Of a DNA stretch of 64,000 bases, positions 5,941-64,000 are shown in pieces; the first letter of the stretch is position 1; every line of letters begins with the position of its first letter. The notes below the pieces were generated by a model, which worked only from the letters and a program-made list of their open reading frames with translations, was not told the origin of the DNA and did not search any database. The translations under genes were made by a program, and so were the position numbers. The DNA is from Chloroflexota bacterium (GTDB taxonomy: Bacteria > Chloroflexota > UBA11872), in assembly GCA_965263075.1 (NCBI GenBank), contig CBDHGI010000006.1, positions 2,790,101 through 2,854,100 on the forward strand. Reading direction: 5' to 3'.

Positions 5941-6768
5941 CTACTGATTCGCACTTTCGATGGTGCGCTCGTATCGCCGCTGCATTTCAGGTCCGCGCCA
6001 GTCCATGAACTCCTGTTCCACGGCGCGGGCGTTGTCCTCGGACGGTGGAAGCGGAATCTCAATGGTGGCCACCGAGATGCGGTCGGTTCCCCAGACATAG
6101 GCCGCCACCTCGCCCTTGCTGACGATGAGGTTCACGCCCACGTTGGCTTCCACCACCGGGACGCCGTTCTCACGTGCCCGCGCGATGACGGCCAGGTTCT
6201 GCTTGCGGCTGCGTGAGCCGTAGGAGGGAATCAGGATGACCTGAGCGCCGTCCATCACCTGGGCGCGGGCGATCAACGGATTCCAGCGGTCGTTGCAAAT
6301 CATGGTGCCCACGCGCGCCAACGGGGTATCGATGGCGTGCAAGTTGGGACCGAGGCGGTTGAAGTCCCAGTCGTCGGTGGCGCCTTCGGCGAGTTGCGTC
6401 TTGTAGTAGGTCCCGCAGTGTTCGCCGTCGGGTCCCAGGATGGCGGCGGCGTTGTAGACGCCGTCATCGCGTCGTTCGGCATAGCCGAAGCAGAGCACGA
6501 TGCTGAGTTCACGGGCCAGGTTCTTGAAGCGCTGGATGTAGGGACCGTCAGGCGGCTCGGCGATCTCCCACAGGTCGGCGCGAAGCTCCGGCTCGTGGAT
6601 GGCCTCCATGACCACGTAGCCCTCGAGAAAGCCCTCGGGGGCGACGACAAGCTCCGCGCCCTCCGCGGCTGCCCGGCGGACGTAGTCCTCCAACTTGTCG
6701 GCATTGGCGGGCTTGTCCCACTTCTTGGGCTTGATGGACAGCGCCGCCGCGCGAACTGATCGATACAT
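5941..6768 (-). CDS. Carbon-nitrogen hydrolase (nitrilase/amidase superfamily)
   Basis: Start MYRSVRAAAL. E-K-C catalytic triad context (VVAPEG..., ...KTQL..., TMICNDRWNP). Confidence 0.8.
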   Translation of the reverse strand: MYRSVRAAALSIKPKKWDKPANADKLEDYVRRAAAEGAELVVAPEGFLEGYVVMEAIHEPELRADLWEIAEPPDGPYIQRFKNLARELSIVLCFGYAERRDDGVYNAAAILGPDGEHCGTYYKTQLAEGATDDWDFNRLGPNLHAIDTPLARVGTMICNDRWNPLIARAQVMDGAQVILIPSYGSRSRKQNLAVIARARENGVPVVEANVGVNLIVSKGEVAAYVWGTDRISVATIEIPLPPSEDNARAVEQEFMDWRGPEMQRRYERTIESANQ

Positions 6769-46135: not shown

Positions 46136-46296
46136 GGGCGTGGTTCGACAGGCTCACCAGGGACGCTGGGTGCGCTGGGATTGTTGGGTGCCGCTGGGCC
46201 CCCTCCTTCGGCAGGCTCAGGGCAGGTTCTCCGGGGACGCCGGGATGTGGTTCGACTCGGCCCTCCGAAGACTGCGGGCCGGCTCACCATGAACGG
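46136..46296. repeat. REP-like modular GC-rich repeat, copy A
   Basis: Contains modules CCTTCGGCAGGCTCAGGGCAGG, TTCTCCGGGGACGCCGGGATG, TGGTTCGACTCGGCC and GGCTCACCATGAACGG. The same modules recur in copies B, C and D. Confidence 0.6.
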
Positions 46297-46346
46297 TAGG
46301 GGACGGGGCACGGAGGTCGGGAGGCGGGGGTTGGGCGCGGCTTGGG

Positions 46347-46494
46347 ATGTGTTCAGTCGGTCGGGGCAATGTGTTCAGTTTCGGGGCCAATGTGTCCAGT
46401 TTTCGGGCCAATGTGTCCAGTTCTTGGCCGAATGTGTTCAGTTTCAAGGGGGATGTGTTCACTTTGGCGGGCGATGTGTCCAGTTTTTGGCGGG
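46347..46494. repeat. Tandem array of seven 21-22-bp direct repeats (core ATGTGT(T/C)CAGTT), iteron-like
   Basis: Core motif starts at 46347, 46369, 46390, 46411, 46432, 46453 and 46474, i.e. a 21-bp period (two helical turns). Noncoding context. Confidence 0.75.
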
Positions 46495-46535
46495 GCGCTC
46501 TGGTTGGGGATGGGGCGCGGACGGAAGGCGAGATT

Positions 46536-46606
46536 CCTCCTTCGGCAAGCTCAGGACAGGCCTCGACGGGCTCAGGGCAGGTTCTCCGAGGACGCCGGGA
46601 TGACGG
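46536..46606. repeat. REP-like modular repeat, copy B
   Basis: CCTCCTTCGGCAAGCTCAGGACAGG...GGGCAGGTTCTCCGAGGACGCCGGGATGACGGG. Confidence 0.6.
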
Positions 46607-46760: not shown

Positions 46761-46923
46761 CGATGCAGGCAACGCTGGCAAGGATGGCGAGCTCGGGACG
46801 CTTGCGTGAACGGTGCGGCTGGCAGGGGTTGGGCGCGGGGAGTGGGTCGGTTTGACCTGGGTGCGGTAGCTTGCGGGCCGGACATAGGTGGCGAGATACA
46901 CGCACAGCAGCGGTGAGGGGCGG

Positions 46924-49017
46924 ATGAACGCGGGGACGCATGGGGAGTTGGCGGGCTTTGTCTGGAGCATTTGCAACCTGTTGCGGGGGCCGTATAAGCG
47001 GAACGAGTACCGGAAGGTGATTCTTCCGCTGACGGTGTTGCGGCGATTCGACTGCGTGCTGGCGGAGACCAAGGACGCGGTCCTGGCGGAGAACGAGAAG
47101 TACGGCGGCGAGGCCAGTTCCCAACTGCTGCAGGCCGCTTCAGGATTCCGCTTCTACAACGTCTCGGAGTTGGACTTCGAGCGGCTGCTGGACGACCCGA
47201 ACCTGATTGCGTCGAACCTGACCGGTTACATCAACCGATTCTCGGCCAACGTGCGCGAGATCTTCGAGCGATTCGGTTTCGAGGCACAGATCGCGAAGAT
47301 GGACGAGAAAAACCTGCTGTTCCAGGTCGTGCAGGCGTTTGCGCGGGTCGACCTGTCGCCCGAGCGTGTCGACAACATGCAGATGGGCTACGTGTTCGAG
47401 GAATTGATCCGGATAGGGGCAGAGCAGGCGAACGAAGAGGCGGGGGAGCACTTCACGCCGCGTGAGGTCATTCGGCTGATGGTGAGCTTGCTGCTGTCGC
47501 ATGAACCCGACCTAGCCAAGTCACACGTGGTGAAAACGATTTACGACCCGGCGTGTGGTACGGGCGGGATGTTGTCGGTTTCCGAGGACTTTCTGAGGGA
47601 GCACAACAGCACCGCGAATCCGTTTCTCTTCGGGCAGGACCACAATGACGAGGTCTGGGCGGTCTGCGCCTCGGACATGCTGATCAAGGGCGAAAACGCC
47701 GAGAACATCGTCCTGGGCGACAGCTTCACGGCCGACGGGTATGCGCGCCGGTCCGACGGTCGGCGCTACACGTTCGACTACATGCTTGCGAATCCACCGT
47801 TTGGCGTTGAGTGGAAGCAACAGCGGCGTGAGATCGAACTGGAACGGGATTCACTGGGCTTCGACGGGCGATTCGGGGCGGGGCTGCCGCGGATCAATGA
47901 CGGGGCGTTGCTGTTCCTGCAGCACATGCTCTCGAAGATGCAGGCGCCTGAAGACGGCGGCAGCCGGATTGCGATCGTCTTCAACGGGTCTCCGTTGTTC
48001 ACGGGCGACGCGGGGAGCGGGGAGAGCGAAATCCGGCGGTGGATCATCGAGAACGACTGGCTGGAAGCCATCGTGGCGCTGCCGGATCAACTCTTCTACA
48101 ACACCGGGATCTCGACCTACATCTGGGTGCTAACCAACCGAAAGGAAGATCGCCGGCTGCGAAAGGTGCAACTGATCGACGGGCGGCAGTTTTTCGTGAA
48201 GATGCGCAGGAGCCTGGGCAACAAGCGCAACGAACTTTCCGCAGGCCAGATCGACGACCTGACGCGGATTCACGGCGATTTCCTGGACGGCGAGACGCGG
48301 GAACTGACGGATGAAGATCCAGTGACACATCAGCTGCGGACAAGGCCGCGCGTGGTGAGCAAGGTGTTTGCGAACGACGACTTTGGCTATCACAAGATCA
48401 CGGTCGAACGTCCGTTGCGGTTGAACTTCGCGGCGACGCCGGAGCGGATTGCGGGCATCGAGGATGAGCGGTCGTTTCAGAATCTGGCGCGGAGCCCGAA
48501 GCGAGCCGGTCCGGCGCACGATGAGGAAGTAGCTGAGGGTTGCAAGCGGCAAGAAGCGATTCGGATCCTGCTGACCTTTCTAGGAAAAGCAACCGGCGGC
48601 AAGGTGATACGAGACCGCGAAGAGCTGCGGATGGCTCTACGCGAATTGTGCAGCCATGCGGGCTTGCGGCTGTCGGCCGGGGAGCGAAAGGCAATCGAGT
48701 CGGCGCTGAGCGAGCGGGATCCGGACGCTGCCATCTGTCGCGGCAGCCGGGGCAAGATCGAGCCGGACACCGAGTTGCGCGACACAGAGACGGTGCCGCT
48801 GGGTGAGGACATCGACAACTACATGGCGCGGGAGGTGCTGCCGCACGTTCCGGACGCCTGGGTAGACGAGAGCAAGACGAAGGTCGGCTACGAGATACCG
48901 CTAAACCGGCACTTCTACGTCTACGAGCCGCCGCGCGCGCTCGACGAGATCAGGTGCGACTTGCAGCAGCTGGAACGGGGGATCGCGGGCCTGATCTCCG
49001 ATGTCGTGAGAAGCTGA
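46924..49017 (+). CDS. hsdM: Type I restriction-modification system, DNA methyltransferase subunit M (with about 200-aa C-terminal extension)
   Basis: Start MNAGTHGELAGFVWSICNLLRG (ATG 46924, preceded by GGTGAGGGG). HsdM N-terminal domain, AdoMet motif (DPACGTGGML) and catalytic NPPF (LANPPFG). Extra C-terminal region of about 200 aa. Confidence 0.9.
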   Translation: MNAGTHGELAGFVWSICNLLRGPYKRNEYRKVILPLTVLRRFDCVLAETKDAVLAENEKYGGEASSQLLQAASGFRFYNVSELDFERLLDDPNLIASNLTGYINRFSANVREIFERFGFEAQIAKMDEKNLLFQVVQAFARVDLSPERVDNMQMGYVFEELIRIGAEQANEEAGEHFTPREVIRLMVSLLLSHEPDLAKSHVVKTIYDPACGTGGMLSVSEDFLREHNSTANPFLFGQDHNDEVWAVCASDMLIKGENAENIVLGDSFTADGYARRSDGRRYTFDYMLANPPFGVEWKQQRREIELERDSLGFDGRFGAGLPRINDGALLFLQHMLSKMQAPEDGGSRIAIVFNGSPLFTGDAGSGESEIRRWIIENDWLEAIVALPDQLFYNTGISTYIWVLTNRKEDRRLRKVQLIDGRQFFVKMRRSLGNKRNELSAGQIDDLTRIHGDFLDGETRELTDEDPVTHQLRTRPRVVSKVFANDDFGYHKITVERPLRLNFAATPERIAGIEDERSFQNLARSPKRAGPAHDEEVAEGCKRQEAIRILLTFLGKATGGKVIRDREELRMALRELCSHAGLRLSAGERKAIESALSERDPDAAICRGSRGKIEPDTELRDTETVPLGEDIDNYMAREVLPHVPDAWVDESKTKVGYEIPLNRHFYVYEPPRALDEIRCDLQQLERGIAGLISDVVRS

Positions 49018-49066
49018 CGGCGTGACCAGGACGTACCGATCCGACGCGAATCGGGCCGCCTAATCC

Positions 49067-49267
49067 ATGCCGAAGGTGCGGGACGCGATCCGGATGGTGG
49101 AGCGCGACGGCTGGCACCATGTGACCACGCGAGGGAGCCACCGGCAGTTCCGCCACCCAGTCAAGCCGGGCAAGGTCACGATTCCGGGCAAACCGGGCGA
49201 CGACGTGGGGCCGAAGCTCTGGGCCAGTATCATGAAGCAGGCTGGCCTCGAGAGAGAACGTCGATGA
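49067..49267 (+). CDS. hicA: HicA-family toxin (mRNA interferase), type II TA
   Basis: 66 aa. ...VERDGWHHVTTRGSHRQFRHPVKPGKVTIPGKPGDDV..., the typical HicA/YcfA fold signature. Confidence 0.85.
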   Translation: MPKVRDAIRMVERDGWHHVTTRGSHRQFRHPVKPGKVTIPGKPGDDVGPKLWASIMKQAGLERERR

Positions 49268-49608
49268 AGCTCACGTACGCCGTCGTCTTCGAGCAGACGC
49301 CCAACAACTACGCGGCCTATGTGCCGGACGTCCCGGGCTGCGTCAGCACCGGCAAGAGCTGGGACGAGATGCTGGCGATGATCCGCGAGGCGCTGGCGTT
49401 CCACATCGAGACGATCCTGGAGGATGGGGAGCCGCTCCCCGAGCCGAGGATGTCTATCGACGAGGCCATCGCGAACCACAGCGAACCCATCGCCGAGGAC
49501 GTGCTCAACTCCTACCTGGAGTTCGGCGAGCCCGGCCCCACGATCTCGACCCGGTTTGAGATGGTTGAGATTGAGGTTCCCGCCCCGCAGGCTGTTCAGG
49601 TGGGCTGA
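49264..49608 (+). CDS. hicB: HicB-family antitoxin (UPF0150), type II TA
   Basis: 114 aa; overlaps the hicA stop (ATGA). MKLTYAVVFEQTPNNYAAYVPDVPGCVSTGKSWDEMLAMIREAL, the HicB N-terminal RNase-H-like fold signature. Confidence 0.8.
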   Translation: MKLTYAVVFEQTPNNYAAYVPDVPGCVSTGKSWDEMLAMIREALAFHIETILEDGEPLPEPRMSIDEAIANHSEPIAEDVLNSYLEFGEPGPTISTRFEMVEIEVPAPQAVQVG

Positions 49609-49702
49609 CGGACACTCGACGGGGAGCGTTGAGGTGGCCACGGGATCCGCCGACGCGCATCGATGTGACGCGGTCAAGACCGTGAGCGAGTCACGCACGA
49701 CC

Positions 49703-51073
49703 ATGCGCGCCTACCCTCACTACCGCGACTTCGGCGTCGAGTGGCTCGGTGAGGTGCCGGAACATTGGACCTCGGAACAGCTTGGACGCCTCGGCTCGTT
49801 CTCAAAGGGCAGCGGCGGCACGAAAGAAGACGAGGTCGAAGACGGAGTTCCCTGCGTTCGCTACGGGGACCTCTACACAGTGCACCAGTTCCACATCAAG
49901 GAGACCCGGGCAAACATCTCCGAGGACAGCGCAGCCAATTACACGGCAATCCGATACGGGGACCTCTTGTTTGCCGGGTCGGGTGAGACCCTTGAGGAAA
50001 TAGGCAAGTCAGCTTCCAATCTGGTTGGCGGCCCGGCGTATTGCGGCGGGGACGTGATCCTCTTTCGTCCGTCAATCGAGACTGAGGCCACTTTTCTTGG
50101 TTACGCCGCAGATTGCGCTCCTGCGGCTTACCAAAAGGCATGCATGGGGCGAGGCGTCACCGTCATGCACATCTACTCCAGCGAGCTCAAGTACATGGTC
50201 GTGCCGCTCCCACCCCTCGACGAGCAGCGCGCAATTGCCGCGTTTCTGGACCGGGAGACGGAGCGGATCGATGCGTTGGTGGAGAAGAAGCGGTTGTTGA
50301 TCGAGCGGTTGGAGGAGTACCGGACGGCGCTGATCACGCGCACGGTGACGCGGGGGCTGCCGCCCGAGGCGGCGCGCGCCGCCGGGCTGGACCCGTCGCC
50401 GCGGTTGAAGGCTTCGGGGGCGGAGTGGCTAGGGGTCGTTCCAGAGCATTGGGAGGTAAAGGCGCTGAAGTGGGAGACGCCTGTTCAACGTGGGGCTTCG
50501 CCGCGGCCAATTGACGACGAAGCCTATTTCGATAACGACGGCTCACACGCCTGGGTACGAATCGCCGATGTGACCGCAGCTGGTATGTATCTGAATCGCA
50601 CGACACAGCGGCTCTCTGAACTAGGAGTCTCCCTAAGCGTGCCGCTAGAGCCAGGGGAGCTTGTTTTGAGCATTGCTGGATCAGTGGGTAAGCCCTGTAT
50701 CACGAAGATCGATTGCTGCATTCACGACGGGTTCGTCTATTTCCCACAATGGACGGGGGACGTTCGGTACCTGTTCTATGTGTTTGCCTCAGGTGAGCCC
50801 TACAAGGGACTGGGGAAACTAGGCACCCAGCTGAACCTGAACACTGACACAGTCGGTTCAATCTCAGTAGCAATACCTCCAGTAGACGAGCAGGCAGCGA
50901 TTGCGGACTACTTGACCACTGAGAACGCCGAGATTGAGAGCTCGTTGGAGTCGGTCCGCGAAGCCGTCGAACGGCTACAGGAATTTCGGGCAGCCCTCAT
51001 CACCGCCGCCGTAACCGGCAAGATCGACGTGCGCGAAGCCGCGCAAGCGCCGGTCGCTGCAATGTTGGCGTAA
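49703..51073 (+). CDS. hsdS: Type I restriction-modification system specificity subunit S
   Basis: Start MRAYPHYRDFGVEWLGEVPEHW. Two target-recognition domains separated by conserved coiled-coil regions (LPPLDEQRAIAAFLDRETERID... and IPPVDEQAAIADYLTTENAEIE...). Confidence 0.9.
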   Translation: MRAYPHYRDFGVEWLGEVPEHWTSEQLGRLGSFSKGSGGTKEDEVEDGVPCVRYGDLYTVHQFHIKETRANISEDSAANYTAIRYGDLLFAGSGETLEEIGKSASNLVGGPAYCGGDVILFRPSIETEATFLGYAADCAPAAYQKACMGRGVTVMHIYSSELKYMVVPLPPLDEQRAIAAFLDRETERIDALVEKKRLLIERLEEYRTALITRTVTRGLPPEAARAAGLDPSPRLKASGAEWLGVVPEHWEVKALKWETPVQRGASPRPIDDEAYFDNDGSHAWVRIADVTAAGMYLNRTTQRLSELGVSLSVPLEPGELVLSIAGSVGKPCITKIDCCIHDGFVYFPQWTGDVRYLFYVFASGEPYKGLGKLGTQLNLNTDTVGSISVAIPPVDEQAAIADYLTTENAEIESSLESVREAVERLQEFRAALITAAVTGKIDVREAAQAPVAAMLA

Positions 51074-54000
51074 ATGACCAGCCAAACCAACGAGGCGGCC
51101 TTCGAGTCGACCGTTGAGGACATGCTGCTCGAGGGCGGCTGGAACTCAGGCAACCGGTTGGAATGGGACGCGGTGCAAGCTCTCTTTCCGGCGCGTGTCG
51201 TCGCGTTCTTGCAGGCGACGCAGCCCGAACAGTGGGCAGCGATGGCTGGATTGCACGGCGAGAAGCTGAAAGCGCGGATCGTGGACGCGCTGGCCAAGGA
51301 ACTGGTCCTGAAGGGCATGCTGGACGTGCTGCGCCACGGGTTCAAGTTCTACGGCAAGACGTTCCGGCTGGCCTATTTCAAACCGGCGCACGGGCTGAAC
51401 CCGGAGGCGCTGGCGCAGTTCGAGCGCAACGACCTGACGGTCACGCGGCAGGTTGCCTACAACCCGAACACCAACGAAACCTTGGACCTGGTGTTTGCGC
51501 TCAACGGCGTGCCGGTGGCCACGTGTGAGTTGAAGAACCCGATGACGGGTCAGTCCTGGAAGAGCGCGGTTCGGCAGTACAAGCAGGACCGTGACCCTAC
51601 CGCTCCAATCTTCAAATTCCAGAAGCGGGCGCTGGTGCACTTTGCCGCCGATCCCGACGAAGTTCACATGACGACGCGACTGGCCGGGGAGAAAACCCGA
51701 TTCCTGCCCTTCAACCGGGGGAGCCGGCCCGGCGAGATTCAATGCGGGGCGGGCAACCCGCCGCATGCTGCGGGGTACCGCACGGGTTACTTCTGGCAGG
51801 GGGTGCTGGAACGCGAGCGGTTCCTGGACATTCTCGGCTCCTACATGTTCGTGGAACGCCGCGACGAGAAGGTCGAGGACGCGAAGGGCGCACGAACGGT
51901 CAAGCGGGAGACGGTGATCTTTCCGCGCTATCACCAACTGGATTCAGTCGACCGCCTGGTGACGACCGCGGCAGCGGATGGTCCGGGACGCAACTACCTG
52001 ATTCAGCACTCAGCTGGGAGCGGCAAGACGAACAGCATCTCGTGGCTGTCGCACCGGCTGGCGAGCCTGCACGACGCCGACGAGCAGAAGATCTACCAGT
52101 GCGTGGTGGTGATCACAGACCGGCGCGTGCTTGACCGACAATTGCAAGACGCGATCTACCAGATCGAGCACGCGCAGGGCGTGGTGAAGGCGATCGATCA
52201 GGATTCCAAGCAGCTGGCGACCGCGCTGGTGGACGGGACGATGATCGTGATTACGACGCTGCAGAAGTTTCCGTTCGTGATGAAGGGTCTGCTGCGGATC
52301 GCGGGGGCCGACGAGCCGGACGCCGCGAGCGCGGCCGAGCGGGCGCAGGCCGAGTCCTGGAGCAAGGCAATTGCCGGGCGTCGATACGCAGTGATCGTGG
52401 ACGAGGCGCACTCCAGCCAGACGGGCGAGAGCGCGCGGGAAATGAAGGCGGTACTCGGGTCCAAGGCGCAGGCAGCCGAGGAGGAAGGGGACGAGGACTG
52501 GGAAGACGGGATCAATGCGGTGATCGAATCGCGCGGACCGCAGCCGAATCTCTCGTTCTTTGCGTTCACGGCGACACCCAAGGGGAAGACGTTAGAGGTG
52601 TTCGGGCGGCCGGGTCCCAGCGGCAAACCTGAGCCGTTCCACGTCTACAGCATGCGTCAGGCGATCGAGGAAGAGTTCATCCTGGACGTGCTGGGGCGGT
52701 ACACCGACTACGACACGTACTACCGGCTGGTGAAGCAGGCGGCGGAGGACCCGGAGTTTCCCAAGCGGCGGGCGGCCTCGGAGCTGGCGAAGTTCATGCA
52801 GCTGCACGAGTACAACCTGGCGCAGAAAGCCGAAGTGATCGTGGAGCACTTCCGCAACAACGTGCGGCACCAGATGGGCGGCAAGGCGAAGGCGATGGTG
52901 GTGACCTCGGGCCGGCTGCACGCGGTGCGCTACATGCAGGCCTTTCAGCGGTACATCGCCGAGAAGGAGTACGAGGACGTGCGGCCGCTGGTGGCCTTCA
53001 GCGGCACGGTGCGGGATCCGGACACGGGCGAGGAGTTCACCGAGCCGAGCATGAACTGGGACGGGGTGACGGGGAAGCCGATCAGCGAATCGGCGTTGCC
53101 GGGCCGGTTCGCCTCGCCGGACTACCAGATTCTGCTGGTGGCGGAGAAGTACCAGACCGGGTTCGACCAACCGTTGTTGCAGGCGATGTACGTGGACAAG
53201 CGGCTGGACGGGGTGCAGGCGGTACAGACGCTCTCACGGCTGAACCGTATGGCGCCGGGGAAGGAACCGCCGTTCGTGCTGGACTTCGTGAACGACCCGG
53301 AGGACATCCGCGACGCGTTCAAGCCGTACTTCGACCAGACGGAACTGCTGGACGAATCGGACCCGCACAAGCTGGAAGTGCTGAAGCACGAACTGGACCA
53401 GATGCAGGTTTACCACTGGGAAGAGGTGGAGGCGTTCGCGAGGGTGTTCTACCTGCCAGTGGCGAAGCAGCGGAAGCAGGATCACGCGCGGCTGGAAAAG
53501 GCGCTGCAGCCAGCGCGGGGCCGGTTCGGGGCGCTGGACGAGGAGGGCCAGACCGAGTTCCGCGACCGGCTAGCGGCGTTCGCGAACCTGTACGCGTTCC
53601 TGAGCCAGATCATTCCCTATGGCGACAGCGAGCATGAGCGGCTGTATTCGTTCGGGCGGGCGCTGCTGCCGTACCTGCAGGAGGACAGTGAGCGGGAACA
53701 GATTGACCTGGGGGACGACGTGGAGCTGGCGTATTACCGGCTGCAACAGGTGACTGAGGGGGCGATCAGCCTGGGCGAGGGTGAAGGCGCCTACGTGGTG
53801 AGCCCGACGGAGACCGGCACGGGCGACCCGGAGGAAGACAAGGCGCCGCTGTCGGAGATTATCGAGCGGCTGAACGAGCGGTTTGGGACGAACTTCACGG
53901 ACGCGGACCGGTTTTTCTTTGAGCAGGTGAAGGCGCAGGCGGTTCAGGACGAAACGGTGCGCGAGACGGCGCGGGCGAATCCGCTGGATAAGTTCAGCCT

Positions 54001-54172
54001 GGGGGTTCGGGATCAGATTTCTGATCTGATGATTGCGCGGATGAGTGAGAACGATTCGCTGGTGAAGCGGTACCTGGAGGAGACGGAGTTTCAAAATCTC
54101 GCGTATGAGGTGTTGGCGAAGGAGATATTTGCGGCGGTGCGGGGTGGTGAGGCGGGGGTGGCCGGCGGATAG
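51074..54172 (+). CDS. hsdR: Type I restriction-modification system endonuclease subunit R
   Basis: 1032 aa. ATG directly follows the hsdS stop. N-terminal nuclease domain, SF2 helicase motifs (QHSAGSGKT; DEAH-like VIVDEAHSSQ) and a C-terminal helical domain. Confidence 0.95.
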   Translation: MTSQTNEAAFESTVEDMLLEGGWNSGNRLEWDAVQALFPARVVAFLQATQPEQWAAMAGLHGEKLKARIVDALAKELVLKGMLDVLRHGFKFYGKTFRLAYFKPAHGLNPEALAQFERNDLTVTRQVAYNPNTNETLDLVFALNGVPVATCELKNPMTGQSWKSAVRQYKQDRDPTAPIFKFQKRALVHFAADPDEVHMTTRLAGEKTRFLPFNRGSRPGEIQCGAGNPPHAAGYRTGYFWQGVLERERFLDILGSYMFVERRDEKVEDAKGARTVKRETVIFPRYHQLDSVDRLVTTAAADGPGRNYLIQHSAGSGKTNSISWLSHRLASLHDADEQKIYQCVVVITDRRVLDRQLQDAIYQIEHAQGVVKAIDQDSKQLATALVDGTMIVITTLQKFPFVMKGLLRIAGADEPDAASAAERAQAESWSKAIAGRRYAVIVDEAHSSQTGESAREMKAVLGSKAQAAEEEGDEDWEDGINAVIESRGPQPNLSFFAFTATPKGKTLEVFGRPGPSGKPEPFHVYSMRQAIEEEFILDVLGRYTDYDTYYRLVKQAAEDPEFPKRRAASELAKFMQLHEYNLAQKAEVIVEHFRNNVRHQMGGKAKAMVVTSGRLHAVRYMQAFQRYIAEKEYEDVRPLVAFSGTVRDPDTGEEFTEPSMNWDGVTGKPISESALPGRFASPDYQILLVAEKYQTGFDQPLLQAMYVDKRLDGVQAVQTLSRLNRMAPGKEPPFVLDFVNDPEDIRDAFKPYFDQTELLDESDPHKLEVLKHELDQMQVYHWEEVEAFARVFYLPVAKQRKQDHARLEKALQPARGRFGALDEEGQTEFRDRLAAFANLYAFLSQIIPYGDSEHERLYSFGRALLPYLQEDSEREQIDLGDDVELAYYRLQQVTEGAISLGEGEGAYVVSPTETGTGDPEEDKAPLSEIIERLNERFGTNFTDADRFFFEQVKAQAVQDETVRETARANPLDKFSLGVRDQISDLMIARMSENDSLVKRYLEETEFQNLAYEVLAKEIFAAVRGGEAGVAGG

Positions 54173-54237: not shown

Positions 54238-54465
54238 CCCCCTTCGGCCGGCCCAGGGCGGGTTCTCCGAGGGACTCCGGGGCGGCTCACCACGAACGGG
54301 GGGTGGGCTGGGGATGTGGTTCGACTCGGGCCGCCGAGGGACTCTGGCCCGGCCCTTCGGCAGGCTCAGGACAGGCTCACCACGAACGGATTGGGGAAGA
54401 CGAGCGGGTCGGAGACGCCGCCTCTACGGAAGTTGGGACCGCGGACGCCGGGATGACGGTAGTGC
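54238..54465. repeat. REP-like modular repeat, copy C (two tandem units)
   Basis: CCTTCGGCCGGCCCAGGGCGGGTTCTCCGAGGGACTCCGGGGCGGCTCACCACGAACGG...GGATGTGGTTCGACTCGGGCC...CCTTCGGCAGGCTCAGGACAGGCTCACCACGAACGG...GACGCCGGGATGACGG. Confidence 0.6.
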
Positions 54466-56200
54466 GCGGTATTCGATAAGGGCTGAGCGGCCGACGACGT
54501 CGAGGATACGGATCAGCGCCTCGTGTCCGTCGGAGTCTGTCAGGCGCAGCTCTTCGCCGGGGGTGAAGTGGACGGGTTGGGGCTGGCCGTGGTTGATCGC
54601 GATGTTGGAGGCGTAGAGATAGGTTCGGTCGCTGGTGTCGCGTATGGGATTGAGGCGGCCCTTGAGGGTGGGTAGGTGTCCGACCGCCTCGGGGAAGATG
54701 ACGCTGCCGCCATCCGGGAGGGGCTGCAGGTCGAGCGTGAGCGCGCCCAGGCTGGGCGTCCAGTCTCGCTCCAGGTGCGCCGCGTGTCGGGGAGCGGCGG
54801 CGAACACGGTCATTGGGAGGTGGGAGGTGGGAGGTGTATAGCTCGACCGCTGCCTCGCCGTCGTCGTTTGTGGTCGCACGTTTCCAGGTCTTGTTCGGGA
54901 ATAGCGCTAAGACGTCGGCGCCGGGCAAGGGCTGACCGGCAGACCGAACGGCAATGACGGCGCTGGCGGGGCTGCTTTCCTGGATTGCCGCAGGGATGGC
55001 GAGGCGGACTTCGGAGTCATCGATGACCTGGTATTCGGGCAGCTTGCCGCAGAGTTCGCGAGTTTCACGCCGGATGATGGGCACGCCGTCGCCGCGGCGT
55101 TCCATGAAGTACTGGTGGTCCTCCGACCCCTGAATTCCGCCAACCGGCAGGCGCGCCAATACGGAGGTCAACGCTTCGTTGCGTGTGACCTGGCGGGTCT
55201 CCATGCTTTCCTCGGTGAGGTTGTTGGGTAGCGAGCCGGGCGACTGAATCTCCAGACGGTCGTCGAACATCGAGAGGCGAATCTTGCTGCCGCGTATCGA
55301 GTAGTCGCGGTGCACGACGGCGTTGACGAGGGCCTCGAACAGCGCCCGGTGGCTGTACTGGGGAAGGTCAACGCGCCCCGGTTCCTTGCGGGCGGCGACC
55401 TGCATGTTGCGTAGGGCGAAGGCGACGGCCTGGGCGATCTGCCTATTCAGCGGGCCGCCGATTTCTTGCGCGTCGATCTGACCGGACGCACGGTCGTTTC
55501 CGCGATAGCGGGTGGCGGTAATCCCAGCGTTTGGCAGCCATTGCTGGGGGTCCGGCGTGCACAACAGCAGGCCGGCGACCGTGGCGCGCGGGATCCCAGC
55601 TTCGTCGCTGGCCAGGAGCGCCAGTCTGCCAAGCGCGGCCTCTGGTTCGGCGGCGCCTTCGGCGCTCAACAGAGGTCGCCAGAGGGACTCGTCCAAGGTG
55701 TTGAATCCGGTGTTTGGAATGGTCTGCTCGTCGAACGATGCGAATCGCGCCTGCCCGCGCCGCTGTGCCAAGCGCAGCCACTCGTCGCCGGTCATTCTTC
55801 GCTTTGTGCCGCCGACGCGGATGTATCGATGACCGGATCGCTCATGCGGCGAATCGCCCGCGGGAACATCGACGATTAACAACCGCTTGCCATCGGGGAG
55901 TTGCATGTGCTGGGTGCGGATGCGAACGGGCGGCTCGATGGCGTCGGAGCTGATTTCGACGACGTAATCGTCTAGCGAGCCAAGTCGCTCACGCGTCATG
56001 TCCTGCCCTTCGCCCTCATCGGTGACACCGCAGAGCAGGGTGCCGCCGTCCGCGTTGGCGAAGGCCGCGATCTCGTCGGCTATGTCGGCGCGGTCCGGGC
56101 TCCTGGGATGGTTGCCGGCGAAATCGACCTGTTTGAATTCCCAGGCGCTGTCCTCGCCCAACTGAAGCCGGCGGGTGATCTCTTCGTCGCTGTAGGTCAT
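54377..56200 (-). CDS. COG2865-type protein (AlbA_2 / 'divergent AAA' N-terminal domain + HATPase_c_4-like domain + beta-sandwich domain); C-terminal about 150 codons probably out of frame
   Basis: Start MTYSDEEITRRL (ATG 56200). AlbA_2-like N-terminus (WEFK...DEIAAFANADGGTLLCGV). HATPase_c_4-like region (ALFEALVNAVVHRDYS...IRLSMFDDRLEIQSPG). CarbopepD_reg-like segment (VIAVRSAGQPLPGADVLA...TTNDDGEAAVELY). After the SHLPPP site encoded by (TGGGAGG)x3 the frame continues as an Arg/Pro-rich low-complexity tail, while a protein-like 130-aa frame (MTVFAAAPRH...LIRILDVVGRSALIEY) continues in another frame. Confidence 0.6.
   Translation of the reverse strand: MTYSDEEITRRLQLGEDSAWEFKQVDFAGNHPRSPDRADIADEIAAFANADGGTLLCGVTDEGEGQDMTRERLGSLDDYVVEISSDAIEPPVRIRTQHMQLPDGKRLLIVDVPAGDSPHERSGHRYIRVGGTKRRMTGDEWLRLAQRRGQARFASFDEQTIPNTGFNTLDESLWRPLLSAEGAAEPEAALGRLALLASDEAGIPRATVAGLLLCTPDPQQWLPNAGITATRYRGNDRASGQIDAQEIGGPLNRQIAQAVAFALRNMQVAARKEPGRVDLPQYSHRALFEALVNAVVHRDYSIRGSKIRLSMFDDRLEIQSPGSLPNNLTEESMETRQVTRNEALTSVLARLPVGGIQGSEDHQYFMERRGDGVPIIRRETRELCGKLPEYQVIDDSEVRLAIPAAIQESSPASAVIAVRSAGQPLPGADVLALFPNKTWKRATTNDDGEAAVELYTSHLPPPNDRVRRRSPTRGAPGARLDAQPGRAHARPAAPPGWRQRHLPRGGRTPTHPQGPPQSHTRHQRPNLSLRLQHRDQPRPAPTRPLHPRRRAAPDRLRRTRGADPYPRRRRPLSPYRIPRTTVIPASAVPTSVEAASPTRSSSPIRSW
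54814..54834. repeat. Heptanucleotide tandem repeat (TGGGAGG)x3 inside a coding region at a frame junction
   Basis: Seen directly: TGGGAGGTGGGAGGTGGGAGG. Loss of one unit would fuse the upstream ORF in frame to the downstream 54424..54816 frame. Confidence 0.7.
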
Positions 56201-56249
56201 TGGTGGTTTGCAGTCTCCTCCCAAGCCATCCTATCCGTAGCCAGTTCTC

Positions 56250-56328
56250 CAGCCGCCGGGATGCTGGGGAGTGTTTCGTGGTTCGATCTGACCTTCTACG
56301 AGCTAAGGACGGGCTCACCACGAACGAG
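56250..56328. repeat. REP-like modular repeat, copy D
   Basis: GCCGCCGGGATGCTGGGG...TGGTTCGATCTGACCTTCTACGAGCTAAGGACGGGCTCACCACGAACG, the same modules as copies A-C. Confidence 0.5.
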
Positions 56329-56375: not shown

Positions 56376-56789
56376 TCACTGTGGCGGGTTGGCGAAGGGG
56401 TTGAGGGTGGGGATGCCGAAGTGCTGGAAGTCGCGGATGTTGCGGGTGACGACGGTTAGGCGGTGGACGGTGGCGACGGCGGCGATGAGGGCGTCCTGCA
56501 TGAGGGTGTCTGATTGGCGGTGCATGAGCTTGGCCCAGATCCGAAACGCGGGGGCGTCCACATCGAGCACTTCATAGGTCGCGAGTACGCGGTCGAGCCA
56601 CGATTCCAGGTGTTCCGCCTTGGCGGCGTCCTGCTGGCGGGTGACTTCGATACCGGCCTGGATCTCGCCGATCGTGACGGCTGACAGATAGAGGTGATCG
56701 GCCGGCACACGCTGAATCCACTCCAGTACGGCCGGGCTTGGCCGCGGGCGACGCAGTTCCGAGACGACGTTTGTATCGAGGAGGTACAC
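56376..56789 (-). CDS. vapC: PIN-domain toxin VapC (type II TA)
   Basis: 137 aa. MYLLDTNVVSELRRPRP... with the conserved acidic residues of a PIN domain (D5, E..., D..., ...TRN). Confidence 0.88.
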   Translation of the reverse strand: MYLLDTNVVSELRRPRPSPAVLEWIQRVPADHLYLSAVTIGEIQAGIEVTRQQDAAKAEHLESWLDRVLATYEVLDVDAPAFRIWAKLMHRQSDTLMQDALIAAVATVHRLTVVTRNIRDFQHFGIPTLNPFANPPQ

Positions 56790-56792
56790 GCG

Positions 56793-57053
56793 CTAGTTGA
56801 ATTGCGGGGCGGCACGGCGACGGAGGGGTCGACGCGGGGGTGTGAGAGCTTCGGTGCGCGGCTCGGGCGCGAGCAGCAACTCCTTGAGGTTGGGGCGCGT
56901 CATGCGCTCCAGCCGGCGCCACTGGTCAATCGGGACGAGCACCGCTGTCTCGACGCCGCGCTTTGTGACGATCTGCGGCCCTTCGGCGAGGCTGGTCTCA
57001 AGCAGTTCGCTGAAACGCGCCTTGGCCTCCTGCACTTGCCAGATGTTGCCCAT
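56793..57053 (-). CDS. Phd/YefM-family antitoxin (partner of VapC)
   Basis: 86 aa. MGNIWQVQEAKARFSELLETSLAEGPQIVTKRGVETAVLVPIDQWRRL, the Phd/YefM N-terminal fold. The stop lies 3 nt before the vapC start. Confidence 0.8.
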   Translation of the reverse strand: MGNIWQVQEAKARFSELLETSLAEGPQIVTKRGVETAVLVPIDQWRRLERMTRPNLKELLLAPEPRTEALTPPRRPLRRRAAPQFN

Positions 57054-62779: not shown

Positions 62780-64000
62780 ATGCGAGGACCACGACGATCA
62801 CTGATGTTGGCGATTCCCTTGGCAGCGCTGTTGGTTGCGTCCTGCGGGGAGAGCTCGTCGGCTGAAGCGGCTCCGGCGGCGGCTGCGGTCGAGAGAATTG
62901 TGATTAAGGAGGTGCCGGTCGAGAAGGTCGTCATGAAGGAGGTTCCGGTCGAAAGGGTGGTAGTGAAGGAAGTCCCGGTCGAGAGGCTTGTCACGCAGGA
63001 GGTCGAGAAGGTCGTCGAAAAGGTCGTGACCGCCAGCGCAGCATTGCAGGAGCCTGCTCCGGGGTCTACGGCGCGGAACCAGGCGACCACGGGCTCGCTG
63101 TTGGCTTCTGAGACGCAGGTGCCCGATTCCGGGCGGAAGGTTATTCGAAACGCTGCTATTGGAATCGTTGTGACCGATGTGCCGACCAGCGTGAAGGCGA
63201 TTCGCGGCATCGTGGCGTCGGTCCCGGGTGCGTTCGTGTCTCAGACCGGGATTGCAGGCAATCAGCCGTACCGGATCAGTTCGATCACTTTGCGGGTTCC
63301 CGCCGAGCGCTTTGACGAGACGATCGAGCGCATTCGCGCCCACGGTCGTGAGGTGGTGGCCGAGGACGTGACCGGACGGGACGTCACGGCTGCGTTCACG
63401 GACATCGAGTCGCGGATGCGCAACGCGCAGGCCACCGAGCGTCAGCTGCTGGAGATCATGGCTACCGCGAGAAACGTGCAGGACACGCTTGAGGTTCAGC
63501 GTGAAGTTGCCAAGGTGCGCGAGGAAATCGAGACGTTCCAAGGGCAGCTCAACTTGCTGGCTGACCAGGCGGCGCTGTCCACGATCACGGTCAACCTGCA
63601 TCCGGTGCCCGACCTTCGAGTCGAGCGCCGTGCGCCGGACCAGTACGCCATGCACGAGTCGGTCGAATTCCCGATCACCGTGATCAACGATGGGACGGTG
63701 GAACTGCGCGAAGTCGTGGTGCGCGATCAGCTCGATCCTGACGTGGTGTTCCAATACGCGACGAAGCCCGGGCAATACGAAGAGGCCACGCACAGCGTGG
63801 TCTGGACGATCGAACGGATGTCGCCCGGTCAGGCCCTTGAACTACGGACGGGCGCGCGTCTTGAAGGCGATGGCCGAACAATTCAGTTGAGCGCGAAAGC
63901 AAGCACGAAGAGCGAAGTTCGCGACGCCGATCAGGACCATGACGAGGTCGCTCTGCCGTTCTTTGTCGACCTCAGCATCAACAAGGAACGCGATCTTGAG
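62780..64000 (+). CDS. DUF4349-like lipoprotein paralog (3' end beyond the window) with N-terminal KEVPVE(K/R)VV tandem repeats
   Basis: ATG 62780; open to the window end. Lipobox LLVASC. Clear paralog of 60786..62486 (IRNAAIGIVV...ITVNLHP...LPFFVDLS). Confidence 0.7.
   Translation, partial: MRGPRRSLMLAIPLAALLVASCGESSSAEAAPAAAAVERIVIKEVPVEKVVMKEVPVERVVVKEVPVERLVTQEVEKVVEKVVTASAALQEPAPGSTARNQATTGSLLASETQVPDSGRKVIRNAAIGIVVTDVPTSVKAIRGIVASVPGAFVSQTGIAGNQPYRISSITLRVPAERFDETIERIRAHGREVVAEDVTGRDVTAAFTDIESRMRNAQATERQLLEIMATARNVQDTLEVQREVAKVREEIETFQGQLNLLADQAALSTITVNLHPVPDLRVERRAPDQYAMHESVEFPITVINDGTVELREVVVRDQLDPDVVFQYATKPGQYEEATHSVVWTIERMSPGQALELRTGARLEGDGRTIQLSAKASTKSEVRDADQDHDEVALPFFVDLSINKERDLE
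62906..63030 (+). repeat. Coding 30-nt tandem repeat (about 4 units) encoding KEVPVEKVVM / KEVPVERVVV / KEVPVERLVT / QEVEKVVEKVV
   Basis: Seen directly in nucleotides and in the translation. Lies in the linker between the lipobox and the DUF4349 core. Confidence 0.7.

What the first reader, a model, noticed from the sequence alone, without database searches (positions are those of the whole stretch)
54377..56200. COG2865-like (AlbA_2 + HATPase_c_4) gene with a heptamer slippage site separating it from an out-of-frame C-terminal domain
The readable protein contains AlbA_2, HATPase-like and CarbopepD-like domains and ends at SHLPPP, which is encoded by (TGGGAGG)x3. Beyond the repeat the current frame encodes only Arg/Pro-rich low-complexity sequence, while another frame encodes about 130 protein-like residues with no ribosome-binding site of its own. 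Deleting one 7-nt unit (a -1 shift) would fuse the two in frame. There are three readings. It may be a slipped-strand (phase-variable) switch that controls whether a C-terminal effector or sensor domain is expressed. It may be a pseudogenising mutation. It may be a homopolymer-type sequencing error. An AlbA_2 (Schlafen-like) plus HATPase protein next to type I restriction-modification is a recurring but uncharacterised association.
Basis: partly seen in the sequence, partly recalled or inferred. Interest (0 to 1): 0.55.

Follow-up and report, generated by a model that had tools for sequence, protein, structure and literature searches.

The report
Frameshifted Schlafen-type defence gene
A bacterial Schlafen-type defence gene next to a restriction system is broken in this genome by a one-off 7-base tandem duplication; this looks like ordinary recent gene inactivation, not an evolved on/off switch.

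Summary
On the minus strand, a gene starting at 56200 carries (CCTCCCA)x3 at 54814-54834. Removing one unit gives a 589-aa protein. Its homologues read ...VELYTSHLPMTVF... in frame, up to 94% identical over full length. All 82 related loci fetched have the in-frame 15-nt spacing; only the window has 22 nt. The three closest loci carry exactly two perfect units, and more distant ones have degenerate versions. A search of 5.8 billion proteins found none with the same out-of-frame tail. Four other loci are broken at different sites.

The best reading is a single slipped-strand duplication (2 to 3 units) that recently inactivated the gene. An assembly artefact cannot be excluded without reads. An evolved phase-variation tract is not supported.

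The break lies inside a transthyretin-like beta-sandwich, not at a domain boundary.

The protein is a prokaryotic Schlafen nuclease with an intact Ex4ExK motif, followed by HATPase_c_4, the beta-sandwich and an unassigned all-beta terminal domain. The sandwich-plus-terminal-domain module recurs on trypsin-like, caspase, M48 peptidase and Ser/Thr-kinase proteins, which suggests a sensor.

In 24 of 82 loci the gene follows hsdM on the same strand, usually in the order hsdM-gene-hsdS. The link between Schlafen proteins and restriction-modification was described in 2026 papers.

The parts
54424..56200 (-). Prokaryotic Schlafen-type gene (span equivalent to the intact gene). It is read in two frames because of the +7 nt insertion. 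The native stop TAG is at 54424-54426.
   Evidence: The version with one unit removed is 589 aa and is 94% identical over 100% of its length to P0001 and P0002.
56215..56222 (-). Shine-Dalgarno-like GGGAGGAG, ending 14 nt upstream of the ATG at 56200.
   Evidence: sequence upstream of the ATG. Homologues start with MTYS..., which confirms this start.
55790..56155 (-). SLFN_AlbA_2 (Schlafen nuclease) domain, residues 16-137.
   Evidence: Pfam 63 bits against a cutoff of 25.3. Foldseek matches to SLFN11, SLFN13, SLFN14, SLFN5 and 3lmm.
56132..56155 (-). Catalytic motif E16-x4-E21-x-K23 (GEDSAWEFK).
   Evidence: sequence. E16 and E21 are invariant and K23 is at least 90% conserved in 45 homologues. 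The motif is defined as Ex4(E/D)xK in PMC13056530.
55004..55291 (-). HATPase_c_4 domain, residues 304-399.
   Evidence: Pfam 68.5 bits against a cutoff of 26.
54724..54946 (-). Transthyretin-like / CarboxypepD_reg-like beta-sandwich (native residues about 419-490), interrupted by the duplication.
   Evidence: Weak Pfam hit, AlphaFold strands 412-488 with pLDDT 82-94, Foldseek match to 5aq0.
54814..54834 (.). Three perfect tandem copies of a heptamer: TGGGAGG on the + strand, CCTCCCA on the sense strand. The closest relatives have two copies.
54427..54813 (-). Displaced native reading frame: the last 129 codons (MTVFAAAP...RSQLP), now out of frame with the N-terminal part.
   Evidence: dN/dS against relatives is 0.15-0.27.
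54460..54711 (-). Core of the unassigned all-beta terminal domain (native residues about 495-578). Conserved motif: G.LP.L.GRLNPI.D...RTYLYA.NIAI..G..QPV.F.
54377..54813 (-). Out-of-frame Arg/Pro-rich tail of the ORF as it stands (about 147 non-native residues including the extra PP). It runs into a REP copy before stopping.
   Evidence: No database protein shares it.
54241..54388 (+). REP-like intergenic repeats (core GGCTCACCACGAACG) between hsdR and the 3' end of the gene.
   Evidence: 6 core matches against 0.25 expected by chance.
56292..56326 (+). REP-like copy upstream of the gene.
46888..54172 (+). Type I restriction-modification cassette, convergent with the Schlafen gene: hsdM 46888-49017, hsdS 49424-51073, hsdR 51074-54172.
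   Evidence: Pfam.
56376..57053 (-). PIN toxin / Phd-YefM antitoxin pair immediately upstream.
   Evidence: Pfam. Syntenic in relatives.

Best explanation
The gene encodes a prokaryotic Schlafen-type nuclease with four parts: an AlbA_2 domain with an intact Ex4ExK site, HATPase_c_4, a transthyretin-like beta-sandwich, and a conserved all-beta terminal domain. It sits in a defence neighbourhood, next to type I restriction-modification and a PIN/Phd pair.

In this genome one extra copy of the heptamer CCTCCCA has been added to a pre-existing pair. The pair arose by chance from the codons for T-S-H-L-P. The addition is a single slipped-strand duplication (shown).

The +7 nt shifts the frame at residue 461, inside the beta-sandwich. 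The product therefore loses half of the sandwich and the whole terminal domain and gains about 147 junk residues (shown). The result is most likely a null allele (inferred).

The event is recent. The displaced 129 codons have no further lesions and still show purifying selection (shown).

The tract could slip back from 3 to 2 units. However, nothing indicates that it has been selected as a switch.

By analogy with characterised bacterial Schlafens, the intact protein would cleave tRNA when its C-terminal sensor module detects infection (inferred).
For: Frame restoration and homologues:
- Removing one unit restores a 589-aa protein that is 94% identical over 100% of its length to P0001 and P0002. 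The top 120 homologues are nearly all 577-591 aa with 98-100% coverage; the one exception is P0033, an 859-aa internal duplication.
- DNA of the closest loci L001, L002 and L056 has exactly two units.
- All 82 loci have the 15-nt in-frame spacing. Only the window has 22 nt.

The repeat is not a selected feature:
- The heptamer pair is degenerate in all but the 3 closest loci.
- Two-unit heptamer pairs occur at chance frequency in the window.
- No other protein among 5.8e9 shares the shifted tail.

Decay is ordinary for this family:
- Four other loci are inactivated at different sites: L010 stop at codon 185, L049 stop at 350, L067 stop at 254, L053 +1 frameshift near residue 524.

The event is recent:
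- dN/dS of the displaced part is 0.15-0.27, against 0.11-0.17 for the N-terminal part.

The neighbourhood looks well assembled:
- Neighbouring genes are intact and the same length as their orthologues. HsdR is 1032 aa in both the window and L001.

Family assignment:
- Pfam hits.
- The E16, E21 and K23 motif positions are invariant or nearly so, matching Ex4(E/D)xK (PMC13056530).
- Foldseek matches to SLFN11, SLFN13, SLFN14, SLFN5 and the COG2865 protein 3lmm.
Against: - No read-level data are available, so a consensus or assembly artefact, or a minority variant chosen by the assembler, cannot be excluded.
- Another public assembly of this gene (P0122) is visibly riddled with frameshifts, so error-prone assemblies of this family exist.
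- A three-unit tract is more slip-prone than unique sequence, so reversion, and hence some switch-like behaviour, is physically possible.
- Loss of function of the truncated product is inferred, not shown.
Confidence: 0.68

Rival explanations
1. Sequencing or assembly artefact: the real genome has two units and the gene is intact.
For: The 3-unit allele is unique among 83 loci and in the protein database. The displaced frame is otherwise undamaged. Error-laden public copies of this gene exist, such as P0122. The related records in the collection are metagenome-assembled genomes, some from very low-coverage contigs; L001's contig is named '..._2x_l'.
Against: A clean insertion of exactly one 7-nt repeat unit is not a typical homopolymer or base-calling error. 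The rest of the window shows long intact ORFs with the same lengths as orthologues and no other obvious broken genes.
Confidence: 0.18
2. An evolved slipped-strand phase-variation (contingency) switch that turns the C-terminal sensor part of the protein on and off.
For: A perfect tandem repeat of a unit not divisible by three lies inside an ORF of a defence gene next to type I restriction-modification, and gain or loss of one unit toggles the frame. Phase variation of restriction-associated genes by simple sequence repeats is known in other bacteria (PMC2651432).
Against: There is no copy-number polymorphism in 82 relatives. The repeat is not conserved at the DNA level outside the 3 closest loci. 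The tract has only 3 units, against 6-38 in documented heptanucleotide tracts. No second instance of the OFF-frame product exists. The site lies inside the beta-sandwich, so the OFF product is a broken fold rather than a domain-less isoform. Other copies decay by unrelated mutations.
Confidence: 0.07
3. Translational recoding: the 3-unit allele encodes L-P-P-P (CCA CCU CCC) followed by A. A +1 slip of tRNA-Pro from CCC to CCA would put the ribosome back in the native frame and give ...SHLPPPMTVF..., the native protein plus two prolines in a loop. Some full-length protein would then still be made.
For: The sequence shows directly that a +1 shift at CCC_A restores the native frame, and the +1 frame has no stop for 26 codons upstream. 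From general knowledge, not tested here: CCC-N sites are prone to +1 slippage, and polyproline stretches stall ribosomes.
Against: The site is not conserved. Every homologue is simply in frame. There is no 0-frame stop or other known stimulator at the site. The upstream mRNA reads CCUCCC, not a Shine-Dalgarno-like stimulator. Any such slippage would be incidental leakiness.
Confidence: 0.03

Closest known systems
Prokaryotic Schlafen nucleases (pSlfn), e.g. RorSlfn5 (Schlafen + Ig-like sensor) and the HisKinase-type pSlfn classes (Nat Microbiol 2026, PMC13056530); CRISPR-associated Schlafen Cash (Nat Commun 2026, PMC13462974)
   Same: N-terminal SLFN_AlbA_2 domain with the Ex4(E/D)xK motif. 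C-terminal non-catalytic domains that would act as sensors, including an Ig-like/transthyretin-like sandwich. Location next to defence genes. The literature reports that more than half of defence-associated Schlafen homologues are linked to restriction-modification and other nucleases.
   Different: This architecture combines HATPase_c_4 with a sandwich plus an unassigned all-beta terminal domain. No member of this family has been tested. Activity, trigger and tRNA targets are inferred. This particular copy is frameshifted.
COG2865-type proteins (AlbA_2 + HATPase_c_4), e.g. DIP2311 of Corynebacterium diphtheriae (PDB 3lmm)
   Same: Same two Pfam domains in the same order. 3lmm is the best structural match over about 430 aligned columns (E 1.6e-12).
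   Different: 3lmm has no aligned counterpart of the sandwich plus terminal-domain module. 3lmm is a structural-genomics entry without a stated function in the match description.
PrrC anticodon nuclease embedded in the EcoprrI type I restriction-modification operon (from established knowledge, not tested here)
   Same: A (presumed) tRNA-cleaving nuclease gene placed inside a type I operon. In 24 of 82 loci this gene follows hsdM on the same strand, 16 of them with an ATGA-type stop/start overlap, and in 21 it is followed by hsdS.
   Different: The protein family is unrelated: PrrC is an ABC-type ATPase with a different nuclease domain. In the window the gene is convergent with hsdR rather than inside the operon. 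Regulation by the restriction enzyme is pure analogy.
Simple-sequence-repeat contingency loci, e.g. heptanucleotide tracts of Haemophilus influenzae hmw1A/hmw2A and the TonB-dependent receptor genes (PMC2651432)
   Same: A heptanucleotide tandem repeat whose unit number sets the reading frame.
   Different: Known tracts have 6-38 units and differ between strains. Here there are 3 units against 2 in the closest relatives, with no variation elsewhere and no DNA-level conservation.

Membership tests
Prokaryotic Schlafen nuclease (SLFN_AlbA_2, PF04326) | Pfam SLFN_AlbA_2 domain above the gathering score | tested here: met
   63 bits against a cutoff of 25.3, residues 16-137.
Prokaryotic Schlafen nuclease (SLFN_AlbA_2, PF04326) | Catalytic Ex4(E/D)xK motif | tested here: met
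   E16-DSAW-E21-F-K23. E16 and E21 are invariant and K23 is at least 90% conserved in 45 homologues. The motif is defined in PMC13056530.
Prokaryotic Schlafen nuclease (SLFN_AlbA_2, PF04326) | Fold similarity to Schlafen N-terminal nuclease domains | tested here: met
   Foldseek matches to SLFN11 7zep (E 3.2e-5), SLFN14 9nyy, SLFN13 5yd0 and SLFN5 7cux. The N-terminal model has pLDDT about 80-90.
Prokaryotic Schlafen nuclease (SLFN_AlbA_2, PF04326) | tRNA cleavage and phage defence | not testable with these tools
   Requires biochemistry or phage challenge. Moreover, this copy is frameshifted.
COG2865-type (AlbA_2 + HATPase_c_4) | Both domains present in this order | tested here: met
   Pfam PF04326 at 16-137 and PF13749 at 304-399. 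The best structural hit is 3lmm.
SSR-mediated phase-variable (contingency) locus | Tandem repeat within the ORF whose unit length is not a multiple of 3 | tested here: met
   3 x 7 nt at 54814-54834.
SSR-mediated phase-variable (contingency) locus | Copy number differs among strains or relatives | tested here: not met
   82 of 82 other loci have the in-frame 15-nt spacing. No other protein has the shifted tail.
SSR-mediated phase-variable (contingency) locus | Tract long enough for high-frequency slippage and maintained at the DNA level | tested here: not met
   3 units against 6-38 in documented heptanucleotide tracts. A perfect pair occurs only in L001, L002 and L056 and is degenerate elsewhere.
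SSR-mediated phase-variable (contingency) locus | Heterogeneous copy number within one population | not testable with these tools
   No reads are available. The metagenome DNA pattern scan found only 2 chance matches.
Programmed +1 ribosomal frameshift | Frameshift site conserved in homologues, with a stimulatory element | tested here: not met
   All homologues are in frame. There is no 0-frame stop at the site and no Shine-Dalgarno-like stimulator upstream.
Recent pseudogene / null allele | Disruption relative to intact orthologues, unique to one lineage, with the remainder still gene-like | tested here: met
   Independent disruptions occur in 4 other loci.

The most novel reading that the evidence does not exclude
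The roughly 170-residue C-terminal module that the frameshift destroys (transthyretin-like sandwich plus an unassigned all-beta domain with the motif GRLNPI.D...RTYLYA.NIAI..G..QPV) may be a portable ligand- or infection-sensing module. It occurs in 1-3 copies on Schlafen nucleases, trypsin-like, caspase and M48 peptidases, and outside the membrane helix of a Ser/Thr kinase. In the Schlafen family it travels between phyla at 63-94% amino-acid identity and is usually wired into type I operons as hsdM-gene-hsdS-hsdR. There it could act as a PrrC-like second line of defence that cleaves tRNA when restriction fails.
Probability: 0.2. Interest if true: 0.55.

Novelty: new member of a known kind. 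Interest (0 to 1): 0.22.

Why it matters
The heptamer 'switch' itself is an ordinary slippage mutation or possibly an artefact, so it should not be counted as a phase-variable locus. The gene family behind it deserves more attention. It is an untested Schlafen-nuclease architecture. It is shared across many bacterial phyla, many of them lineages named for sponge symbionts. It is often embedded between hsdM and hsdS. It also carries a terminal domain with no family or fold assignment that recurs on protease and kinase proteins. An intact homologue such as P0001 would be a suitable candidate for testing how Schlafen nucleases cooperate with type I restriction.

Tried and rejected
- Looking up the window's own frameshifted ORF in the assembly index found nothing, so the source contig and reads could not be traced.
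- A degenerate DNA pattern scan of JGI metagenomes for 1-4 heptamer units found 2 stretches, neither related to the gene. This gave no information on population copy number.
- NCBIfam gave no hit.
- PADLOC gave only weak hits to Schlafen-containing Argonaute-associated models, which is not membership.
- Supplementary tables of PMC13056530 are not held, so the exact pSlfn class number could not be assigned.
- The iterated local HMM for HsdR drifted onto the Schlafen gene itself in 4 loci (L050, L062, L065, L066). Those hits were disregarded.
- I rejected the idea that the 129-codon frame is an independent gene. Its Met is an internal conserved residue of the family (LPMTVF), it has no ribosome-binding site, and it starts inside the sandwich.
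Full report
**What is in the sequence**

The feature lies on the minus strand. A gene starts at the ATG at 56200, preceded by GGGAGGAG, and runs as one ORF of 607 codons to a stop at 54377. At 54814-54834 the + strand reads (TGGGAGG)x3, which is (CCTCCCA)x3 in the sense strand. TRF reports period 7, 3.3 copies and 100% matches.

This is the only perfect heptamer triplet in the window, and none appeared in 200 dinucleotide-preserving shuffles. Perfect heptamer pairs are no commoner than chance: 4 observed against 5.45 expected.

Up to ...VELYTSHLP the ORF is protein-like. After that it encodes PP and then about 145 Arg/Pro-rich residues. The adjacent frame (54427-54813) encodes 129 ordinary-looking residues starting MTVFAAAP. 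The sequence just upstream of that Met is pyrimidine-rich and has no ribosome-binding site. Removing one heptamer fuses the two parts into a 589-aa protein.

**Is the downstream frame real coding sequence?**

Yes. The repaired protein finds more than 3,700 relatives. The best 120, apart from one internally duplicated 859-aa protein (P0033), are 577-591 aa long, cover 98-100% of the query and reach 94% identity. They read ...VELYTSHLPMTVFAAAP..., exactly the two-unit version.

**DNA-level comparison**

The two closest loci fetched by protein look-up (L001, L002) have ACCTCCCACCTCCCAATG, which is two perfect units. A scan of one genome per species returned 80 further loci. In all 82 loci the conserved flanks are 15 nt apart and in the same frame. 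Only the window has 22 nt and a frame change.

Two perfect units occur only in L001, L002 and L056. All other loci have synonymous or near-synonymous variants such as ACGTCCCACCTCCCA or ACGACCCATCTCCCC. So the heptamer pair is a by-product of codon choice for T-S-H-L-P in one sub-lineage, not a maintained repeat.

I then searched with the window's junction plus out-of-frame tail against 5.8 billion proteins. Only two hits came back. Both matched the in-frame N-side and both read SHLPMTVF. No other assembly carries the shifted tail. A DNA pattern scan of JGI metagenomes for 1-4 units gave only two unrelated chance matches.

**How old is the lesion, and is decay unusual?**

Against its five nearest relatives, the displaced 129-codon part has dN/dS of 0.15-0.27, compared with 0.11-0.17 for the N-terminal part. 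It carries no further stops or indels. The shift is therefore recent relative to a synonymous divergence of 0.2-0.5.

Four of the 82 other loci are also broken, each at a different site:
- L010: GAG to TAG at codon 185.
- L049: TGA at codon 350.
- L067: TAG at codon 254.
- L053: +1 frameshift near residue 524.

Sporadic inactivation is thus normal for this family and is not tied to the heptamer.

**Where the break falls in the protein**

Pfam places SLFN_AlbA_2 at residues 16-137 and HATPase_c_4 at 304-399. A weak CarboxypepD_reg match covers 419-474, aligned to profile positions 8-63 of 82.

An AlphaFold model of the 94%-identical P0001 gives pLDDT 82-94 for residues 412-582. Sandwich strands continue to about residue 488, followed by a second all-beta domain at about 491-577. 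Foldseek confirms the transthyretin-like sandwich (5aq0) and the Schlafen and COG2865 folds (3lmm, SLFN11, SLFN13, SLFN14, SLFN5).

The frameshift at residue 461 therefore cuts the sandwich roughly in half. It does not lie between domains. The product as encoded would have a broken fold plus a junk tail, which argues for a null allele rather than a domain-less isoform.

**What the gene is**

The N-terminus carries E16-x4-E21-x-K23. E16 and E21 are invariant and K23 is at least 90% conserved across 45 homologues. This is the Ex4(E/D)xK catalytic motif of Schlafen nucleases (PMC13056530).

Two 2026 papers show that bacterial Schlafen proteins are phage-defence tRNases whose fused domains act as sensors. 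One characterised example uses an Ig-like sensor. [quoted passage not shown] The gene is therefore a new member of a known kind. Its activity and trigger are inferred, not shown.

**The terminal domain**

An exhaustive HMMER search with the 129 residues found 484 representative clusters at E<=1e-3. Besides Schlafen proteins, the sandwich plus terminal-domain module occurs in 1-3 copies in the following contexts:
- behind signal-peptide-bearing trypsin-like, caspase (Peptidase_C14) and M48 peptidases;
- next to HATPase_c_4 plus Fic-like_C;
- outside the membrane helix of a Ser/Thr kinase (P0123).

**Genomic context**

The window order is:
- ClpB;
- a REP cluster and a 21-nt tandem array;
- hsdM, a small ORF, hsdS and hsdR on the + strand;
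- REP copies;
- the Schlafen gene on the - strand;
- a REP copy;
- PIN and Phd on the - strand;
- moaC and gyrA.

The gyrA-moaC-Phd/PIN-Schlafen order is conserved in the closest Chloroflexota relatives. Most of these lack the adjacent restriction cassette; only L001 shares it.

Across the 82 loci, 33 have hsdM or hsdS within 6 kb. In 24 loci hsdM lies directly upstream on the same strand, 16 of them with an ATGA-type stop/start overlap. hsdS follows in 21 of these and hsdR is in range in 9. This recalls PrrC in the EcoprrI operon, which is an analogy from general knowledge and was not tested.

The family is shared at 63-94% amino-acid identity among Chloroflexota, Poribacteria, Entotheonellaceae, Acidobacteriota, Latescibacterota, Nitrospira, Binatia, Alpha- and Gammaproteobacteria and Trueperaceae MAGs. 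This implies horizontal transfer.

**Weighing the readings**

- A real, recent slipped-strand duplication that inactivates the gene fits all the comparative data. I give it about 0.68.
- An assembly or consensus artefact cannot be excluded without reads. The allele is unique, and error-laden public copies of this gene exist (P0122). On the other hand, a clean one-unit insertion in an otherwise well-assembled window is not a typical error. I give it about 0.18.
- An evolved phase-variation tract fails three of its defining features: polymorphism, tract length or maintenance, and sensible placement. Documented heptanucleotide tracts have 6-38 units and vary between strains (PMC2651432). I give it about 0.07.
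- The 3-unit allele happens to encode L-P-P-P followed by A. A +1 slip at CCC_A would restore the frame, giving the native protein plus two prolines. This is not conserved anywhere and would be incidental leakiness at most. I give it about 0.03.

**Verdict**

The heptamer is an ordinary mutation or possible artefact of low interest. The gene family and its unassigned sensor-like module are the more useful leads.

Noticed in passing
window 46347-46486: Six to seven tandem 21-nt units (AATGTGTYCAGTTT plus a variable 7 nt). They lie between two clusters of REP-like elements, about 400 nt upstream of hsdM. Function unknown; they could be protein-binding iterons or part of a mobile-element boundary.
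   Followed up: no
window 46205-46594, 54241-54388, 56292-56326: A REP-like repeat family (about 35-40 nt unit, core GGCTCACCACGAACG; 6 core matches against 0.25 expected by chance). It brackets the type I restriction cassette and the Schlafen gene. This suggests the cassette was inserted between repeat clusters.
   Followed up: partly
window 54439-54459: A 21-nt piece that is 95% identical to part of the REP unit at 46586-46606 lies within the last codons of the gene. The C-terminal tail ALPSSRRPRSQLP, shared only with the nearest relatives, may be REP-derived. Other homologues end ...IEYRVAPRT or similar.
   Followed up: partly
window 62886-63004: A 30-nt unit repeated 4 times (75% matches) inside a long + strand ORF that runs off the window end (62732 to beyond 64000).
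   Followed up: no
L003-L082 (genome-contig loci): The 580-aa Schlafen family is shared at 63-94% amino-acid identity among MAGs of at least ten phyla or classes. Many are named for sponge-symbiont lineages (Poribacteria, Entotheonellaceae, Poriferihabitaceae). This implies extensive horizontal transfer within one kind of habitat.
   Followed up: partly
L018, L037, L040, L050, L054, L057, L059, L069, L070, L072, L073, L079, L081, L082 and others, around position 6001: In 24 of 82 loci the gene follows hsdM on the same strand. In 16 of these the hsdM stop overlaps the gene's start (ATGA or GTGA). hsdS follows in 21. The gene is therefore an internal member of type I operons.
   Followed up: yes
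L010 codon 185; L049 codon 350; L067 codon 254; L053 about 7571: Four other genomes carry independently inactivated copies: three nonsense codons and one +1 frameshift.
   Followed up: yes
P0123, P0128, P0173, P0180, P0190 (database proteins): The sandwich plus terminal-domain module occurs in 2-3 tandem copies on several other proteins: a membrane-anchored Ser/Thr kinase; signal-peptide-bearing trypsin-like, caspase and M48 peptidases; and P0190, whose N-terminal part has no recognised domain. The module has no Pfam family of its own.
   Followed up: partly
P0033 (859 aa): One homologue has an internal duplication of the middle region of about 270 residues (linker plus HATPase_c_4).
   Followed up: no
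window 49018-49608: A small ORF with coding-like GC3 lies between hsdM and hsdS. L001 has a 122-aa gene with no Pfam hit at the same place. It may be an uncharacterised accessory gene of this type I cassette.
   Followed up: no
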